This document shows, piece after piece, positions 23,898-28,289 of a stretch of 64,000 nucleotides of DNA. The DNA is taken from the NCBI RefSeq assembly GCF_003334405.1, contig NZ_QOWM01000004.1; one strand, written 5' to 3'. How positions within the stretch are numbered: position 1 is the stretch's first letter; each line of letters starts with the position of its first letter. The notes beneath the pieces are model-generated. The model was not told where the DNA came from. It saw nothing but the letters and a program-made list of their open reading frames with translations, and made no database searches. The translations under genes were made by a program, and so were the position numbers. The DNA is from Escherichia coli. GTDB lineage: Bacteria; Pseudomonadota; Gammaproteobacteria; Enterobacterales; Enterobacteriaceae.

Positions 23898-24158
23898 TTA
23901 CTTATAAATTACCGCAGTACCGCTTAATTTATTGTTGTTGGTGGCGGAAGTGATGCTGTATCCACTGGCACCGGCTGCCGCGGCTTTCTCAGCCAGTTTC
24001 GCTTCCAGGGCATCGAGGGTGGATGCGCCATCGGCAGAAACCACGCCGATTTTATTCATGTTCTGTGCCTGGGATGCCGTTACCGGTTCCGCCGCGAACA
24101 CGCCAAATGACAGAGTTGAAAGAGCCATAGCAGCAACAACAGTATTGATAGTTTTCAT
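23898..24158 (-). CDS. ybiJ: DUF1471 (YhcN/BhsA-like) periplasmic protein YbiJ
   Basis: ORF 86 aa with signal peptide, C-terminal …GTAVIYK. Confidence 0.9.
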   Translation of the reverse strand: MKTINTVVAAMALSTLSFGVFAAEPVTASQAQNMNKIGVVSADGASTLDALEAKLAEKAAAAGASGYSITSATNNNKLSGTAVIYK

Positions 24159-24422
24159 AATTAATCTCTCGCAGGTGATTTTTGTATAAGTGACGTTGTT
24201 TCGTCGATGTGATGAGTATCACGTTTTTTTACGAGAGATAAAATCGAAGAGAATTGACCGCCTTGTTCAAATAAATTGATTGATATCTAACCTACTGATA
24301 AACCATTTATTTGTTGTACTTATGAACTTGTTTTATACCGCGTGGCAGTCACAGCAGCGTTAAAGGCACGGAATGACACGCAAAATACAAATTATACTCG
24401 CTATGCATCTCGCCAGTTGTAG

Positions 24423-24689
24423 TTAACGTAACTGGCTGTCTTTCGAACCTCTGCGATTATATCCTGTATAAGCTGGTTTTTGTAAATCTTTCTCCTGCTG
24501 ACAATGAATACATAAGCGCACGCCAGGAATGGCTTCCCGACGGGCCTGCGGGATGGGGGCACCGCACTCTTCACATTCATCCAGGCTTTCGCCGCGCGGA
24601 ATTTCACCCCGAGCGCGGGCAATCGCATCTTCAATTGTACTGTTGATCTGTTCGTTGACGGCGTCATCGTTAGCCCAACCGGATGCCAT
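24423..24689 (-). CDS. ybiI: DksA/TraR-family C4 zinc-finger protein YbiI
   Basis: ORF 88 aa; CEECGAPIP…CIHCQ four-Cys finger. Confidence 0.9.
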   Translation of the reverse strand: MASGWANDDAVNEQINSTIEDAIARARGEIPRGESLDECEECGAPIPQARREAIPGVRLCIHCQQEKDLQKPAYTGYNRRGSKDSQLR

Positions 24690-24762
24690 ATCGACCTCCC
24701 CATATCAATACTTGTACAGTTAAGTGTAGCTAATCCAGGGACGAACTCGGGCAGTTCAAGCA

Positions 24763-25440
24763 TCAGATCTCCGACCATTCCCGCAGCAGATTATGATAAA
24801 GATTAAGCAGCGACAGGATCTCTTCACTTTCGCCGTAGCGGCTTTTCAGCGACTGAATATTGTTGTCCAGTTCAAACAGCATGGCGCGCTTTTTATCATC
24901 GCGGATCATCGACTGGATCCACATAAATGATGCCACTCGTACGCCGCGGGTTACGGGTGTCACGCAATGCAGGCTGCTGGAGGGATACAACACGAGATCG
25001 CCTGCCGGGAGTTTTACCCGATGTTGTCCGAAGGTGTCATTAACGACCAGTTCGCCGCCGTCGTAGCTTTGTGGATCGCTTAAAAACAGCGTGGCAGAAA
25101 GGTCAGTACGCATCCAGCCGTTTTGTGGATGGCTGCGTACTGCGCCATCCACATGGAAACCATAGGTTTCATTGTTCTGATAGCGATTAAACAGCGGCGT
25201 GGAAAGGGTACGCGGCAAGGCCGCGGCAAAGAATAAAGCATGTTGGTTAACCGCGTTCAGCACCTCATTTTGCAGGGCGGCGTATAACGTGCTGCGGGTG
25301 TCGACCTGTTGATTGTTCTTAACTTGCGCACCTTGTGCGCCGGTGGTGACGCGTCCATCCACCCATTCGGCTTGTTCCAGTTGTTCGCGAAAACGAGCGA
25401 CGTCCTGTGGCGATAACACGCCGGGAATGTGGTACATCAT
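24763..25440 (-). CDS. ybiX: PKHD-type Fe(II)/2-oxoglutarate-dependent hydroxylase YbiX
   Basis: Start MMYHIPGVL…; HVDGAV (HxD) motif; ORF track extends to 25476. Confidence 0.9.
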
Positions 25441-25481
25441 ACAATTTCTCCAAAAAGTGGGGCCTGCGCCCCACATCTGAA

Positions 25482-27764
25482 TCAGAAATGCATATTGGCT
25501 GTGAGCAAGAAGGTTCTTGGCTCGCCCGGGTGATAACGGTAGCCGCTCTTGTTGATTGAGGCGACGTAATCGGTATCAAACAGGTTGTAAACGTTTAGCT
25601 GGAAGTCGAGATTGCGATTAACTCGATACCCCAGTTTGGCATCGGCGACCCAGTAACCTTCGGTAAACGCTGGCGTTCCCACCGCGCCGTCTGAACCTTT
25701 ATGCATACTGCCGATATAGCGTGCGCCCGCGCCAACAGAGATATCGTCGGTTGCCTGATATTGGCTCCATAAGGTGAAGGCGTGCTCCGGGGTATACGGC
25801 AGCGATGAGGAACCATCCTGGGCAACATCTTTGCCGTTTTTGATGGTTGCTTTTTGCTGGGTATAGCCGCCAATCACCTGCCACGCGGGAGTGATATTCC
25901 CGGCCACGGATATCTCATAGCCTTCGACGCGTTTCTTACCGTATTGCGAGTAAGTTCCGTCATCATTTTGCTCAACTTCATTTTCGATATCAGTGCGGAA
26001 CAGCGCGGCGGTGAGCAACAGACGTTTATCCAGAACCTGCCATTTGGTGCCAATCTCGCTGGTGTTGGCTTTTTGCGGTTTAAAATCGGTGCGGTTGGCA
26101 CTGTTACCGCTGCCAGACTGCGCAAGGGCGAAGTTGTTGCCGCCCGGAGGCTGCTGGGAAACGGCATAGTTAATATAGACATTGCCGTTTTCCGTCAGGT
26201 GATACAGCGCCCCGGCTTTCCAGTTCATCAGATTGCCCGACTTGGCGGTGTCGACGGTGGTGACCGGAGAACCTTTTGCCACACCAGTTGGGCAGGTGAT
26301 GGCACCGCGTCCGCTGCCGCCGCAGGCGGTGGCACTGTCATATTCAGTATGATAATTATCCAGACGGATCCCGCCGTTCAGCTCAAAATCACGGGTGATT
26401 TGCAGCGTATCAAAGGCGTAAATTGCGAAGGTATCCGTCTGACCATTGGCGTTTGCGCCGTTGCGCGTCAGGCCGCCGGGATGAATGCTGCTGTCAGGAT
26501 GATAAATATTTACCGCGGGTAACGTCACCGGATTAACGCCGTAGTTAGTCTGCGTTTCACGGGTAAATTCCACGCCGGTACTGACATCATGACCGATAGA
26601 ACCGGTATAGAACGTCGAGGTCAGGTTGGTCTGGTTGGTGAGAATTTTATTACTCACATCTTTGGTATTCGCCGTGCGTGACCAGGTCCAGCTATTCACA
26701 TCGCTGGTGGGCTGAGTAATATTCGACGCCCCGCCCATAATCGCCGTCATCAGGTAATCCTGCTTTACGCGCGACCAACGGGTAGTATTGCGAATGGTGG
26801 TGTTATCGTTGATGTCGTGCTCAAAACGCATGGTGGCGGTGTCGGTGGTCGAATCGTCGTAATCGGAATCCGTGCCGTAAAAGTTATGAGTATCAACTTT
26901 TCCGGAATGATTCAGGGCCGCCGTTCCCGCAGATGGGGCAGAATAGCCCGGCAAACCGATGGTCGGAATGCCGCCGTCTGGCGTGTTGTGCTGGGTGACA
27001 TGCAGATAATTAAGATACAAACGATTCGCTGTACCAAGGCCAAAAGCGACAGAAGGGGCGACGCCGTAACGCTCATTTTTGACTTTGTCGCGTCCGGCAT
27101 CGTGCGTTTTTTCGCCCATTACATTCAGGCGCACCGCGGTGGTATCACCAATGACCTGATTGACGTCCAGCGTGCCGCGGCGGAACCAGGCGCTGCCAAT
27201 ACTGGCGGAGGCGTCAATGCCGGAATCATTGCGCGGCTGCTTGCTGATCATATTGATCGAGCCTGTCGGTGCGCTGCGCCCGTAGTCGGTGCCGGACGGC
27301 CCTTTAATCACTTCGACCTGCTCGGTATTGAAGGTGTCGCGCGAGACGCTGCCGATATCGCGAATGCCATCAATATAAATACTGTTAGAGGTATCGGCAC
27401 CACGCATATAAATGGCGTCGCCAGTGGTGGAGTTACCGTTCTCACCCGCAAAAAACGCACCCACGCCGGGGACGTTTTTGAGCGCGTCGGTAAGGTTGGT
27501 TGCGCCCTGATCTTTAATCACTTGTTCAGAAATTACCGTCATCGTGCGGGTAGTATCCGCTACCGGACGCGAGAATTTCGGATCGGCAGATTGTTGTGGC
27601 GCATAAAGCGAAGGCGTTGATGCTTCGACAACCAGCGTGTCATCCGCGTTAGTTTGCCCTTCGGCGGCGAGTGCCTGAGCCACAGGCGTGATGCCAATAC
27701 AAAGACCGGCAAAGAACGTGAGCGAATGAAATTGTCTGGCAGGGAAATTGCGATTGTTTTCCAT
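25482..27764 (-). CDS. fiu: TonB-dependent catecholate-siderophore outer membrane receptor Fiu
   Basis: ORF 760 aa; signal peptide, TonB box region, C-terminal …TANMHF. Confidence 0.93.
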
Positions 27765-27866
27765 TTTGCAGGTGACTTTTTCTTATATGTTGAAATTTTC
27801 ACTGCCACGAGAAAGCCTCTCTGCGGATGCGATGCCACTGTTAATCCCGTGATAGTGCTCGTGAAA

Positions 27867-27895
27867 GTGATAATAATTTTGATAAGCATTATCAC
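27867..27895 (-). promoter_or_regulatory. Fur box upstream of fiu
   Basis: GTGATAATAATTTTGATAAGCATTATCAC resembles GATAATGATAATCATTATC consensus. Confidence 0.65.
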
Positions 27896-28028
27896 TTGGA
27901 GCGATTTTCTATCACCCATTGCGCGAAAAAGAAATACATTTATTTACATTGAGTTCATATTTGATGTTTTTTGATTACAAAACAGACGAAAACTGCATCC
28001 AGAGGCGAATGCAGTTACGTTGGTGGGG

Positions 28029-28289
28029 TTATTTGTAGATGGTTGCAGTACCGAACATCTGGTCATTTCCGCCTGCGGAATTAATGACATAACCTTTCGC
28101 GCCTTGTTCGCGCGCTTTTTCTGCCAGTTTATCCTCCAGATCGCTTAGGTTTGATGCGCCAGTTGCCGAAACGGTACCGGCGGGCCGTAGCTGACCGCTG
28201 TCCAGGTTACTCATCGGTTGCGCGGCATAAGCCGTGAGAGAGATTCCGCTCAGGACGGTGGCAATCAGTAGTGTGAGGCACTTTTTCAT
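28029..28289 (-). CDS. mcbA: DUF1471 periplasmic protein McbA (YbiM)
   Basis: Start MKKCLTLLIATVLS…, C-terminal …GTATIYK; ORF track extends to 28433. Confidence 0.88.
   Translation of the reverse strand: MKKCLTLLIATVLSGISLTAYAAQPMSNLDSGQLRPAGTVSATGASNLSDLEDKLAEKAREQGAKGYVINSAGGNDQMFGTATIYK

What the first reader, a model, noticed from the sequence alone, without database searches (positions are those of the whole stretch)
23898..28289. DUF1471 paralogs ybiJ and mcbA bracket the iron-regulated block
YbiJ (86 aa) and McbA (86 aa) are the same length. Both have signal peptides and alignable C-terminal halves (…ASTLDALEAKLAEKAAAAGASGYSITSA…GTAVIYK versus …ASNLSDLEDKLAEKAREQGAKGYVINSA…GTATIYK). 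Two paralogous small periplasmic stress proteins flanking fiu-ybiX-ybiI, each with its own AT-rich upstream region, suggest local duplication and possibly shared regulation.
Basis: seen in the sequence. Interest (0 to 1): 0.35.

Follow-up and report, generated by a model that had tools for sequence, protein, structure and literature searches.

The report
Known DUF1471 paralogs flanking fiu block
Two already-annotated small exported stress proteins of E. coli (YbiJ and McbA) do sit either side of an iron-uptake gene block, but they are old, separately regulated family members no closer to each other than to a third copy (BhsA) elsewhere, so this is ordinary.

Summary
The window is E. coli K-12-like chromosome. 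ybiJ (23898-24158, -) and mcbA (28029-28289, -) each encode an 86-aa DUF1471/PF07338 protein identical to the MG1655 protein. They align without gaps at 47% identity (E=1e-22) and flank ybiI-ybiX-fiu.

- **Similarity.** BhsA, about 331 kb away in K-12, is as similar to each as they are to each other. YbiJ-BhsA is 47% and McbA-BhsA is 43%. In curated NCBIfam profiles each scores higher on the BhsA model than on the other's model. Bootstrapped NJ trees and four-point tests leave YbiJ/McbA/BhsA an unresolved trichotomy.
- **Age.** Third-codon identity is 30% and the flanks share no DNA similarity, so any duplication is ancient.
- **Synteny.** The two genes stay linked on one strand in at least 8 genera and are adjacent in Pluralibacter. 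This is compatible with an old tandem origin but does not prove it.
- **The block between them.** fiu-ybiX is labile. It was deleted in E. albertii and some Citrobacter, and other cargo replaces it in Pseudescherichia.
- **Regulation.** The cis elements differ. ybiJ has a conserved YhaJ box, mcbA is a McbR target, and Fur boxes occur only before fiu.

All of this is already known biology; interest is low.

The parts
23898..24158 (-). ybiJ CDS: 86-aa DUF1471 protein; signal peptide residues 1-22 are encoded at 24093-24158
   Evidence: ORF. Identical to MG1655 b0802. PF07338 E=1.2e-17. NCBIfam NF007611 173 bits, cut-off 110.
24267..24279 (-). YhaJ (LysR-type) box TCA-N7-TGA, 121 nt upstream of the ybiJ ATG
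   Evidence: Motif found at -121. Conserved in 9 of 11 genera upstream of ybiJ and absent upstream of mcbA in 11 of 11. Mutations at -120 and -111/-112 and EMSA are reported in PMC5031710.
24192..24258 (-). Conserved ybiJ promoter and 5' leader blocks
   Evidence: Near-invariant blocks across 11 Enterobacteriaceae in the upstream alignment.
23821..23891 (-). REP pair in the ybiJ 3' UTR (Rfam naRNA4)
   Evidence: RF02564 78.4 bits, above gathering score 59.5. Direct repeat D1.
23668..23764 (-). ZbiJ, a 3'-UTR-derived Hfq-associated sRNA of ybiJ, ending in an intrinsic terminator (23676-23697)
   Evidence: Annotated b4814 in NC_000913, mapped to the window by offset. Terminator scan. Northern-verified in PMC8175672.
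24423..24689 (-). ybiI: DksA/TraR-family C4 zinc-finger protein
   Evidence: NF008243 160.5 bits, cut-off 96. Linked to ybiJ in all loci except Pluralibacter. Member of the Fur-1 iModulon (PMC10164565).
24763..25440 (-). ybiX: Fe(II)-dependent PKHD-type hydroxylase
   Evidence: NF003972 519.8 bits. K-12 annotation.
25482..27764 (-). fiu: TonB-dependent catecholate siderophore receptor
   Evidence: NF007349 1507.6 bits. K-12 annotation.
27863..27899 (.). Cluster of overlapping Fur-box matches over the fiu promoter
   Evidence: Five overlapping 14-15/19 matches to GATAATGATAATCATTATC; joint best score in the 64-kb window (15/19, tied with one site at 59518-59536). Nothing comparable lies upstream of ybiJ. 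Upstream of mcbA there is only a 13/19 match, one of 42 such matches in the window. A promoter-like -10 GATAAT overlaps the cluster.
27979..28016 (-). mcbA intrinsic terminator, separating mcbA from fiu
   Evidence: Stem ACTGCAT...ATGCAGT followed by a T-run, read from the sequence. Conserved after mcbA in E. albertii, Citrobacter, Enterobacter and Lelliottia.
28029..28289 (-). mcbA (ybiM) CDS: 86-aa DUF1471 periplasmic protein; signal peptide residues 1-22
   Evidence: ORF. Identical to MG1655 b0806. NF040473 174.5 bits, cut-off 110. A conserved GAGGAT Shine-Dalgarno sequence precedes the annotated ATG.
28318..28444 (-). Conserved mcbA upstream elements: TACACT -10-like block, GTCAATTTTTTGCG, ATCGTTCAAAAAA, and inverted repeat AAATCA-N16-TGATTT
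   Evidence: Phylogenetic footprint over 11 genera, unrelated to the ybiJ footprint. No regulator was assigned to these elements here.

Best explanation
ybiJ and mcbA are two long-diverged members of the YbiJ/McbA/BhsA branch of the DUF1471 (PF07338, YhcN/BhsA/McbA) family. These are small Sec-exported periplasmic alpha+beta domains, restricted to Enterobacterales, that are induced by envelope and chemical stress and change cell-surface behaviour (biofilm, colanic acid). Each gene is its own transcription unit. ybiJ has a conserved promoter with a YhaJ box, and its long 3' UTR carries REP elements and the sRNA ZbiJ. mcbA has a different conserved promoter region, is reported to be repressed by McbR, and has its own terminator. 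The genes between them form a separate Fur-controlled unit (fiu-ybiX, with ybiI). The bracketing reflects an old, conserved linkage of mcbA-ybiI-ybiJ, into or out of which the fiu-ybiX cassette comes and goes. It does not reflect a functional or regulatory unit. Shown here: identity, family membership, equidistance to BhsA, distinct cis elements, and lability of the cassette. Inferred: an ancient duplication, possibly tandem, before the Escherichia/Citrobacter/Enterobacter/Pluralibacter split. Also inferred: the proteins act in the periplasm as small binding modules that alter envelope properties; their molecular mechanism is unknown in the literature.
For: Identity and annotation. Family membership. 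Equidistance: YbiJ-McbA 47% against YbiJ-BhsA 47%, McbA-BhsA 43% and YbiJ-YhcN 45%. NCBIfam cross-scores: YbiJ scores 116 on BhsA against 80.6 on McbA; McbA scores 101.5 on BhsA against 74.3 on YbiJ. Group-mean identities are 45/47/41%. YbiJ+McbA+BhsA group apart from YhcN and YahO at 65-87% bootstrap in anchor-only trees (33-57% with all taxa), but the order inside is unresolved. Ancient age: CDS nucleotide identity 50%, third positions 30%; the only shared DNA repeat is 25 nt at the 3' ends, 72% identical. Separate units: the mcbA terminator, the Fur-box cluster only before fiu, and the YhaJ box only before ybiJ. Upstream regions show no similarity (score 21 against shuffles 18.3+-2.5). Literature: YhaJ binds and activates ybiJ (PMC5031710). 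McbR represses ybiM (Zhang 2008, cited in PMC4092069 and PMC13343897). The Fur-1 iModulon holds fiu, ybiX and ybiI, and that paper nowhere mentions ybiJ or mcbA (PMC10164565). 'YbiJ is a paralog of McbA' is stated in bioRxiv 10.1101/2025.02.11.637708. Synteny and cassette lability.
Against: YbiJ+McbA is the plurality topology in most NJ analyses (32-55%), so an exclusive sister relationship, and thus a local duplication, is not excluded. Both genes are strongly co-induced in EHEC on radish sprouts (log2FC 6.6 and 7.5, PMC4048457), so some shared upstream signal may exist. Only two true BhsA orthologs were available for the trees. Signal peptides were judged by eye only. No transcription data were analysed here.
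Confidence: 0.8

Rival explanations
1. ybiJ and mcbA are products of a local (tandem) duplication at this locus. fiu-ybiX-ybiI ended up between them, and the two copies retain shared regulation.
For: Both genes lie on the same strand and stay linked in Escherichia, Citrobacter, Enterobacter, Lelliottia, Pseudescherichia and Pluralibacter. In Pluralibacter they are adjacent, 444 bp apart, with no ybiI. A deep-branching McbA (56% identity) also sits just upstream of fiu. YbiJ+McbA is the plurality NJ grouping. The family is known to expand by local duplication, for example yjfN-yjfO and yhcN with a ycfR-like gene (PMC4092069). Both genes are co-induced on radish sprouts (PMC4048457).
Against: BhsA is equally or more similar to each. 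The four-point test flips with the outgroup. Bootstrap support never exceeds 55%. The flanks share no DNA similarity. The conserved promoter motifs and the known regulators differ (PMC5031710). Where fiu-ybiX is absent in E. albertii and Citrobacter, that is a secondary deletion leaving ybiX remnants, not the ancestral tandem state.
Confidence: 0.4
2. Independent arrival. mcbA derives from a bhsA-like gene, by duplication elsewhere or by horizontal transfer, and landed next to rlmF near ybiJ by chance. The linkage therefore carries no information about origin.
For: McbA scores higher on the BhsA profile than on the YbiJ profile. With YhcN as outgroup the four-point test favours McbA+BhsA in 165-209 of 300 replicates. 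The closest Salmonella protein to YbiM is YcfR/BhsA, and Salmonella lacks McbA while keeping ybiJ (PMC4092069). McbA is patchy, being absent from the Pseudocitrobacter and Superficieibacter loci. It also evolves faster than YbiJ, at 62-74% against 75-85% identity outside Escherichia in the same genome pairs.
Against: Landing within a few kb of a paralog, on the same strand, is an unlikely coincidence. With YahO as outgroup, YbiJ+McbA wins. NJ trees prefer YbiJ+McbA.
Confidence: 0.25
3. Functional coupling. The two DUF1471 proteins, or the ybiJ 3'-UTR sRNA ZbiJ, work together with the Fiu/YbiX iron-uptake genes, and the neighbourhood is selected for that reason.
For: RIL-seq detected the ybiJ-ybiC intergenic RNA (the ZbiJ region) paired with fepA mRNA, mostly under iron starvation (PMC11979758). 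DUF1471 domains share the RcsF fold, and RcsF interacts with outer-membrane beta-barrels (PMC4092069; bioRxiv 10.1101/2025.02.11.637708).
Against: fiu-ybiX has been deleted or replaced repeatedly while mcbA-ybiI-ybiJ remained. Salmonella keeps fiu without mcbA (PMC4092069). There is no Fur box at ybiJ or mcbA, and the Fur pan-regulon paper does not mention either gene. ZbiJ shows no better-than-shuffled pairing with the fiu, ybiX, ybiI, ybiJ or mcbA leaders.
Confidence: 0.05

Closest known systems
BhsA (YcfR), the E. coli DUF1471 multiple-stress-resistance protein
   Same: It is 85 aa with the same signal-peptide-plus-single-domain layout and the same C-terminal GTAVIYK motif. It is 47% identical to YbiJ and 43% to McbA. 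It is the second-best NCBIfam model for both. Like ybiJ, it has a 3'-UTR-derived sRNA (BhsB). It is induced by acid together with ybiJ (PMC10746267).
   Different: It lies about 331 kb away, next to comR, which is annotated as a transcriptional repressor. It has a one-residue deletion after the signal peptide. It is described as outer-membrane associated.
DUF1471 / YhcN / BhsA-McbA family (Pfam PF07338), as characterised by Eletsky et al. 2014 (PMC4092069)
   Same: Both window genes are bona fide members. That paper already reports ten E. coli paralogs, expansion by gene duplication, adjacent gene pairs, periplasmic targeting and an RcsF-like alpha+beta fold.
   Different: The paper lists yjfN-yjfO and yhcN with a ycfR-like gene as adjacent pairs. 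It does not discuss ybiJ-mcbA linkage or the variable cassette between them.
yjfN-bsmA (yjfO), an adjacent DUF1471 pair in E. coli
   Same: Two DUF1471 genes on the same strand at one locus, consistent with local duplication.
   Different: That pair is directly adjacent (148 bp apart) and only 30% identical. ybiJ and mcbA are 47% identical but separated by 3.9 kb carrying three unrelated genes.

Membership tests
DUF1471 / YdgH_BhsA-like (Pfam PF07338) | Significant match to the Pfam domain model over the C-terminal ~55 residues | tested here: met
   YbiJ residues 34-86 match model positions 1-55, E=1.2e-17. All 8 K-12 paralogs scanned match at E<=0.001.
DUF1471 / YdgH_BhsA-like (Pfam PF07338) | Small (~85-90 aa) single-domain protein with an N-terminal Sec signal peptide | tested here: met
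   Both are 86 aa. Each has MK-, a hydrophobic core and an AXA-type site after residue 22 (VFA|A, AYA|A), read from the translations. This was by inspection only; no signal-peptide predictor was available.
DUF1471 / YdgH_BhsA-like (Pfam PF07338) | Alpha+beta fold as in the solved family members (e.g. SrfN, YahO) | not tested
   Only sequence matches to solved family members were obtained (2noc E=1.3e-25, 2ma4 E=1.3e-19, 2jna, 2ma8). No structure was predicted.
DUF1471 / YdgH_BhsA-like (Pfam PF07338) | Restricted to Enterobacterales | tested here: met
The literature states the same restriction (PMC4092069; bioRxiv 10.1101/2025.02.11.637708).
NCBIfam equivalogs YbiJ (NF007611) and McbA (NF040473) | Whole-protein score above the curated cut-off of its own model and below that of the sister model | tested here: met
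   YbiJ scores 173.1 on its own model (cut-off 110) and 80.6 on McbA (below 110). McbA scores 174.5 on its own model and 74.3 on YbiJ. Both also exceed the BhsA cut-off of 90 (116.2 and 101.5), but each has its best hit on its own model.
Local (tandem) duplicate pair | The two copies are each other's closest relatives, forming an exclusive clade | tested here: inconclusive
   Identity to BhsA equals or nearly equals identity to each other. Profile scores favour BhsA. NJ bootstrap for YbiJ+McbA is 32-55% against 10-35% for the alternatives. The four-point test depends on the outgroup.
Local (tandem) duplicate pair | Same orientation and conserved adjacency in related genomes | tested here: met
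   The order mcbA-(fiu-ybiX)-ybiI-ybiJ, on one strand, occurs in 24 of the 25 ybiJ-carrying loci that extend far enough upstream. The genes are directly adjacent in two Pluralibacter genomes.
Local (tandem) duplicate pair | Residual DNA-level similarity of coding or flanking sequence | tested here: not met
   CDS nucleotide identity is 50% and third positions 30%. Upstream regions are indistinguishable from shuffles. The only shared repeat is 25 nt at 72%.
Shared regulon (Fur or other) of ybiJ and mcbA | A common transcription-factor site upstream of both genes | tested here: not met
   The Fur-box cluster lies only before fiu. The YhaJ box lies only before ybiJ, in 9 of 11 genera against 0 of 11 for mcbA. 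The conserved footprints are unrelated.
Shared regulon (Fur or other) of ybiJ and mcbA | Co-expression across conditions | not testable with these tools
   Literature only. The genes are co-induced on radish sprouts but diverge in the other ten conditions (PMC4048457). ybiJ, bhsA and yhcN are among the top acid-induced genes, and mcbA is not mentioned anywhere in that paper (PMC10746267). The Fur-1 iModulon paper does not mention either gene (PMC10164565).

The most novel reading that the evidence does not exclude
The mcbA...ybiI-ybiJ interval may be an ancient tandem DUF1471 duplicate whose internal gap acts as a recurrent cargo-exchange slot. It holds fiu-ybiX in E. coli and Citrobacter, an amidohydrolase plus Liv-like ABC transporter plus LysR module in Pseudescherichia, and nothing in Enterobacter and E. 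albertii. In addition, the ybiJ transcript may feed into iron homeostasis post-transcriptionally through its 3'-UTR sRNA ZbiJ pairing with fepA. If so, the neighbourhood with the Fur block would not be purely accidental.
Probability: 0.1. Interest if true: 0.35.

Novelty: already known. Interest (0 to 1): 0.1.

Why it matters
It matters little. The two genes, their family, their paralogy and their separate regulators are all in the E. coli annotation and literature. The useful outcome is negative. Gene order here should not be read as evidence that ybiJ or mcbA belongs to the Fur or iron regulon. Nor should a 47% match be read as evidence of an exclusive local duplication, because BhsA is just as close. 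There are two small comparative additions. First, fiu-ybiX is a repeatedly lost or replaced cassette inside a conserved mcbA-ybiI-ybiJ linkage group. Second, two members of this clade (ybiJ and bhsA) both carry 3'-UTR sRNAs. Either could be a minor lead for people working on DUF1471 proteins or 3'-UTR sRNAs.

Tried and rejected
1. **Upstream similarity.** Local alignment of the two upstream regions scored 21 against shuffles of 18.3+-2.5, so there is no shared promoter.
2. **Fur boxes.** A scan of the whole window found the cluster only before fiu. There is a 13/19 match in the mcbA-rlmF spacer, but it is one of 42 such matches and was treated as chance.
3. **ZbiJ targets.** ZbiJ against the fiu, ybiX, ybiI, ybiJ and mcbA leaders with RNAduplex gave z between -0.4 and +1.4 against shuffles, so there is no signal. 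duplexfold is a crude test.
4. **First homolog search.** The profile search returned only YbiJ and McbA variants among the best 120 hits and was useless for BhsA sampling.
5. **Representative library.** Many 50%-identity representatives were frameshifted or chimeric fragments. The first tree was redone after filtering for full-length HMM coverage. One hypermutated-looking representative (P0250) was dropped.
6. **Kluyvera loci.** L032-L036 matched only the signal peptide (25-27 aa) and scored 18-23 bits on the family HMM. They were not treated as orthologs.
7. **Yersinia alsatica.** Its gene (L030) lies in neither the ybiJ nor the bhsA nor the yhcN context, so it could not serve as a positional outgroup.
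8. **A deep YbiJ-like representative.** P0148 sits in an unrelated context (PIN, LysR) on a 3.4-kb contig and was uninformative.
9. **fiu-ybiX as an insertion.** I first considered that fiu-ybiX was inserted into an ancestral tandem pair. I rejected this as a general statement because E. albertii and two Citrobacter genomes retain the last 16-25 nt of ybiX (EWSEI-stop), so absence there is secondary deletion. For Enterobacter and Lelliottia the direction remains open.

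
Full report
**What is there**

The window is E. coli chromosome. The 4.8-kb stretch 23700-28500 matches all 5426 complete E. coli genomes, and 5417 carry at least 80% of it in one place. It is collinear with MG1655 837.4-842.3 kb. On the minus strand lie:
- ybiJ, 23898-24158
- ybiI, 24423-24689
- ybiX, 24763-25440
- fiu, 25482-27764
- mcbA (ybiM), 28029-28289

rlmF diverges from mcbA on the plus strand. Both 86-aa proteins are identical to the MG1655 proteins. BLASTP gives 40/86 identities (47%), no gaps, E=1e-22.

All eight K-12 paralogs scanned match Pfam PF07338, the YdgH/BhsA/McbA-like domain formerly called DUF1471. Each window protein exceeds the curated NCBIfam cut-off of its own equivalog: YbiJ NF007611 at 173 bits and McbA NF040473 at 174.5 bits, both against a cut-off of 110. 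A family profile also matches solved DUF1471 structures such as 2noc, 2ma4 and 2jna. Both N-termini have the Sec signal-peptide pattern with an AXA-type site after residue 22. This was judged by inspection only. An HMM scan of all six frames finds exactly these two DUF1471 genes in the 64-kb window.

**Are they a special pair?**

I collected nine of the ten K-12 DUF1471 genes from NC_000913 and compared them: yahO, ybiJ, mcbA, bhsA, ydgH, yhcN, yjfN, bsmA and yjfY. The tenth, rclB, was located but not compared; ten paralogs agrees with PMC4092069.

- **Pairwise identity.** YbiJ-McbA is 47% (70 bits). YbiJ-BhsA is also 47% (71 bits), McbA-BhsA is 43% (68 bits) and YbiJ-YhcN is 45% (63 bits).
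- **Curated profiles.** These are built from many orthologs, and the result is sharper. YbiJ scores 116 bits on the BhsA model but 80.6 on the McbA model. McbA scores 101.5 on BhsA but 74.3 on YbiJ.
- **Literature.** Eletsky et al. noted that the nearest Salmonella protein to YbiM is YcfR/BhsA, at 47% (PMC4092069).

On raw similarity that criterion is met.

Similarity is not phylogeny, so I built trees. McbA evolves faster than YbiJ: in the same genome pairs outside Escherichia it is 62-74% identical to the E. coli protein, against 75-85% for YbiJ. I used YbiJ and McbA orthologs from eight genera and 50%-identity cluster representatives of the whole subfamily, filtered for full-length matches.

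- YbiJ, McbA and BhsA are each monophyletic (81-99%).
- Together they separate from YhcN and YahO at 65-87% in the anchor-only analyses. Support falls to 33-57% when all taxa are included.
- The order inside the trio is unresolved. YbiJ+McbA gets 32-55%, YbiJ+BhsA 12-35% and McbA+BhsA 10-25%.
- A four-point test on group-mean distances picks McbA+BhsA with YhcN as outgroup. With YahO as outgroup it picks YbiJ+McbA on the mature region and is unresolved on the full-length alignment.

About 62-85 alignment columns cannot resolve this. Only two genuine BhsA orthologs were available, which is a weakness.

At the DNA level the coding sequences are 50% identical, with 30% at third positions. That is effectively saturated. 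The only shared repeat is 25 nt at the 3' ends, 72% identical. Any duplication predates the divergence of Escherichia, Citrobacter, Enterobacter, Lelliottia, Pseudescherichia and Pluralibacter.

**Synteny**

Thirty loci were recovered from one genome per species with YbiJ as query. I annotated them by tblastn and by a family HMM.

- **Linkage.** mcbA and ybiJ are on one strand at the rlmF-hcxB locus in Escherichia, Citrobacter, Enterobacter, Lelliottia, Pseudescherichia and Pluralibacter. In two Pluralibacter genomes they are adjacent, 444 bp apart, with no ybiI. This linkage is the best argument for an old tandem origin.
- **fiu-ybiX is not a stable part of the locus.** It is absent in E. albertii, C. 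werkmanii, C. youngae ATCC 29220, Enterobacter and Lelliottia, where the order is mcbA-ybiI-ybiJ within about 1.3 kb.
- **Secondary deletion.** In E. albertii and in the two Citrobacter genomes, the last 16-25 nt of ybiX survive directly after the mcbA terminator. They encode ...EWSEI-stop. Absence there is therefore secondary deletion, with different breakpoints. No remnant is detectable in Enterobacter or Lelliottia.
- **Replacement.** In Pseudescherichia vulneris and Escherichia sp. ESNIH1, a 7.6-kb module occupies the slot. It carries an allantoate-amidohydrolase-like enzyme, a Liv-like ABC transporter and a LysR regulator.
- **Loss of mcbA.** mcbA is missing at the Pseudocitrobacter and Superficieibacter loci and in Salmonella (PMC4092069). 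A deep-branching McbA (56% identity) on a metagenomic contig again sits just upstream of fiu.

So the bracket seen in E. coli is one state of a labile interval.

**Regulation**

The AT-rich upstream regions are real: 37% and 39% G+C against 52% for the window, among the lowest 2.7% of 264-nt windows. The fiu upstream region is the same at 38.6%, so this is simply what promoter regions look like. The two regions have no similarity to each other (score 21, shuffles 18.3+-2.5).

Phylogenetic footprints across 11 genera are entirely different.
- **ybiJ.** It has an LTTR box, TCAATTTATTTGA, at -121 (24267-24279). The box is conserved in 9 of 11 genera and is followed by near-invariant promoter and leader blocks.
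- **mcbA.** It has an inverted repeat, AAATCA-N16-TGATTT (28417-28444), plus three other conserved blocks. It has no TCA-N7-TGA box in any genus.

The ybiJ box coincides with the positions mutated by Palevsky et al. They showed that YhaJ binds the ybiJ promoter and is required for its induction by hydroquinone (PMC5031710). mcbA is reported to be repressed by McbR/YncC (Zhang et al. 2008, cited in PMC4092069 and PMC13343897).

Fur-box matches cluster only at 27863-27899, over the fiu promoter. mcbA ends in its own conserved terminator at 27979-28016. The Fur-1 iModulon contains fiu, ybiX and ybiI, and that paper does not mention ybiJ or mcbA (PMC10164565).

Published expression is mixed. ybiJ, bhsA and yhcN are among the 20 most acid-induced genes, and mcbA is not mentioned anywhere in that paper (PMC10746267). 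In EHEC on radish sprouts, however, ybiJ and ybiM are both induced more than 90-fold (PMC4048457). Shared cis-regulation is not supported. A shared physiological trigger in some niche is possible.

**How it most likely works**

Each gene encodes a precursor that Sec exports. Signal peptidase would then release a domain of about 64 residues into the periplasm. This is inferred from the sequence. A weak envelope-enriched YbiJ-msfGFP signal is reported in bioRxiv 10.1101/2025.02.11.637708.

The domain belongs to a family with a solved alpha+beta fold resembling RcsF (PMC4092069). Family members change surface behaviour. McbA affects colanic acid and biofilm, BhsA affects aggregation and stress resistance, and SrfN binds sulfated polysaccharides (PMC4092069). 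My best guess is that these are stress-induced periplasmic binding modules that modify envelope properties or signalling, each wired to a different sensor: YhaJ for aromatic and quinone compounds, and McbR, recently linked to the folate pool. The molecular mechanism is not known for any member and was not testable here.

**Comparison, novelty and verdict**

Both genes are annotated members of a described family, and the literature states outright that 'YbiJ is a paralog of McbA'. Expansion of the family by gene duplication, including adjacent pairs, was discussed in 2014 (PMC4092069). The finding is therefore already known.

My comparative additions are modest:
- YbiJ, McbA and BhsA are equidistant.
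- fiu-ybiX has been lost or replaced repeatedly inside a conserved mcbA-ybiI-ybiJ linkage.
- The two promoters have distinct conserved footprints.

Interest is low, about 0.1. The most novel reading still open is that the interval is a cargo slot between ancient tandem paralogs, and that ybiJ's 3'-UTR sRNA ZbiJ ties the locus to iron uptake through fepA (RIL-seq, PMC11979758). I give that about 10%. A crude duplex test of ZbiJ against the local leaders gave nothing.

Noticed in passing
window 23668-23764 (-), 23736-23795 (+): The ybiJ 3' UTR ends in the annotated Hfq-associated sRNA ZbiJ, whose terminator lies at 23676-23697. ZbiJ overlaps the 3' end of convergent hcxB and lies antisense to the 19-codon small ORF ybiE. 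RIL-seq studies found this 'ybiJ-ybiC intergenic' RNA paired with fepA mRNA, mostly under iron starvation (PMC11979758). A crude duplex test against the local leaders (fiu, ybiX, ybiI, ybiJ, mcbA) was no better than shuffles.
   Followed up: partly
window 23821-23891 (-): A REP pair between the ybiJ stop codon and ZbiJ matches Rfam naRNA4 (RF02564) at 78.4 bits, above the gathering score of 59.5. A second REP-like copy lies at 23771-23806.
   Followed up: no
L003 3304-3403 (NC_000913 1169303-1169402) versus window 23668-23764: The paralog bhsA also carries an annotated 3'-UTR sRNA, BhsB. So two of the three members of the YbiJ/McbA/BhsA clade have 3'-UTR-derived sRNAs, and none is annotated for mcbA. 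I did not test whether the two sRNAs are related.
   Followed up: no
L008 6777-6999; L015 9290-9432; L016 9292-9432: E. albertii, C. werkmanii and C. youngae ATCC 29220 lack fiu-ybiX. They keep the last 16-25 nt of ybiX (encoding EWSEI-stop) right after the mcbA terminator. The breakpoints differ, so these look like independent deletions.
   Followed up: yes
L020 1872-9410 (also L019): In Pseudescherichia vulneris and Escherichia sp. ESNIH1 the mcbA-ybiI gap holds a 7.6-kb module in place of fiu-ybiX. It carries an allantoate-amidohydrolase-like enzyme, a Liv-like ABC transporter (binding protein, two ATPases, two permeases) and a divergent GcvA-like LysR regulator.
   Followed up: partly
window 25482-27764 (fiu), in other E. 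coli genomes: The twelve best-ranked, 100%-identical E. coli genomes all carry a 1.35-1.44-kb IS4-family (IS4 or IS421) insertion in this stretch. In the first four records fiu is annotated as split by it. I did not count how frequent this is across the 5426 genomes.
   Followed up: no
window 28417-28444 (-): A conserved inverted repeat, AAATCA-N16-TGATTT, lies about 130-155 nt upstream of mcbA in the mcbA-rlmF spacer. In Pluralibacter the arms extend to 9 nt. No regulator was assigned here. It could be a McbR site or belong to rlmF.
   Followed up: partly
window 24789-24807 (+), inside the ybiX 3' end: An isolated 14/19 Fur-box match lies about 100 nt upstream of ybiI. ybiI is reported in the Fur-1 iModulon (PMC10164565). 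I did not resolve whether it has its own Fur-controlled promoter or is read through from fiu-ybiX.
   Followed up: no
L032-L036 (Kluyvera spp.): Small ORFs of about 87-88 aa share the YbiJ-like signal peptide (64-70% identity over 25-27 residues). They score only 18-23 bits on the DUF1471 family HMM and lie in a different context. They may be a very divergent or unrelated small exported protein.
   Followed up: no
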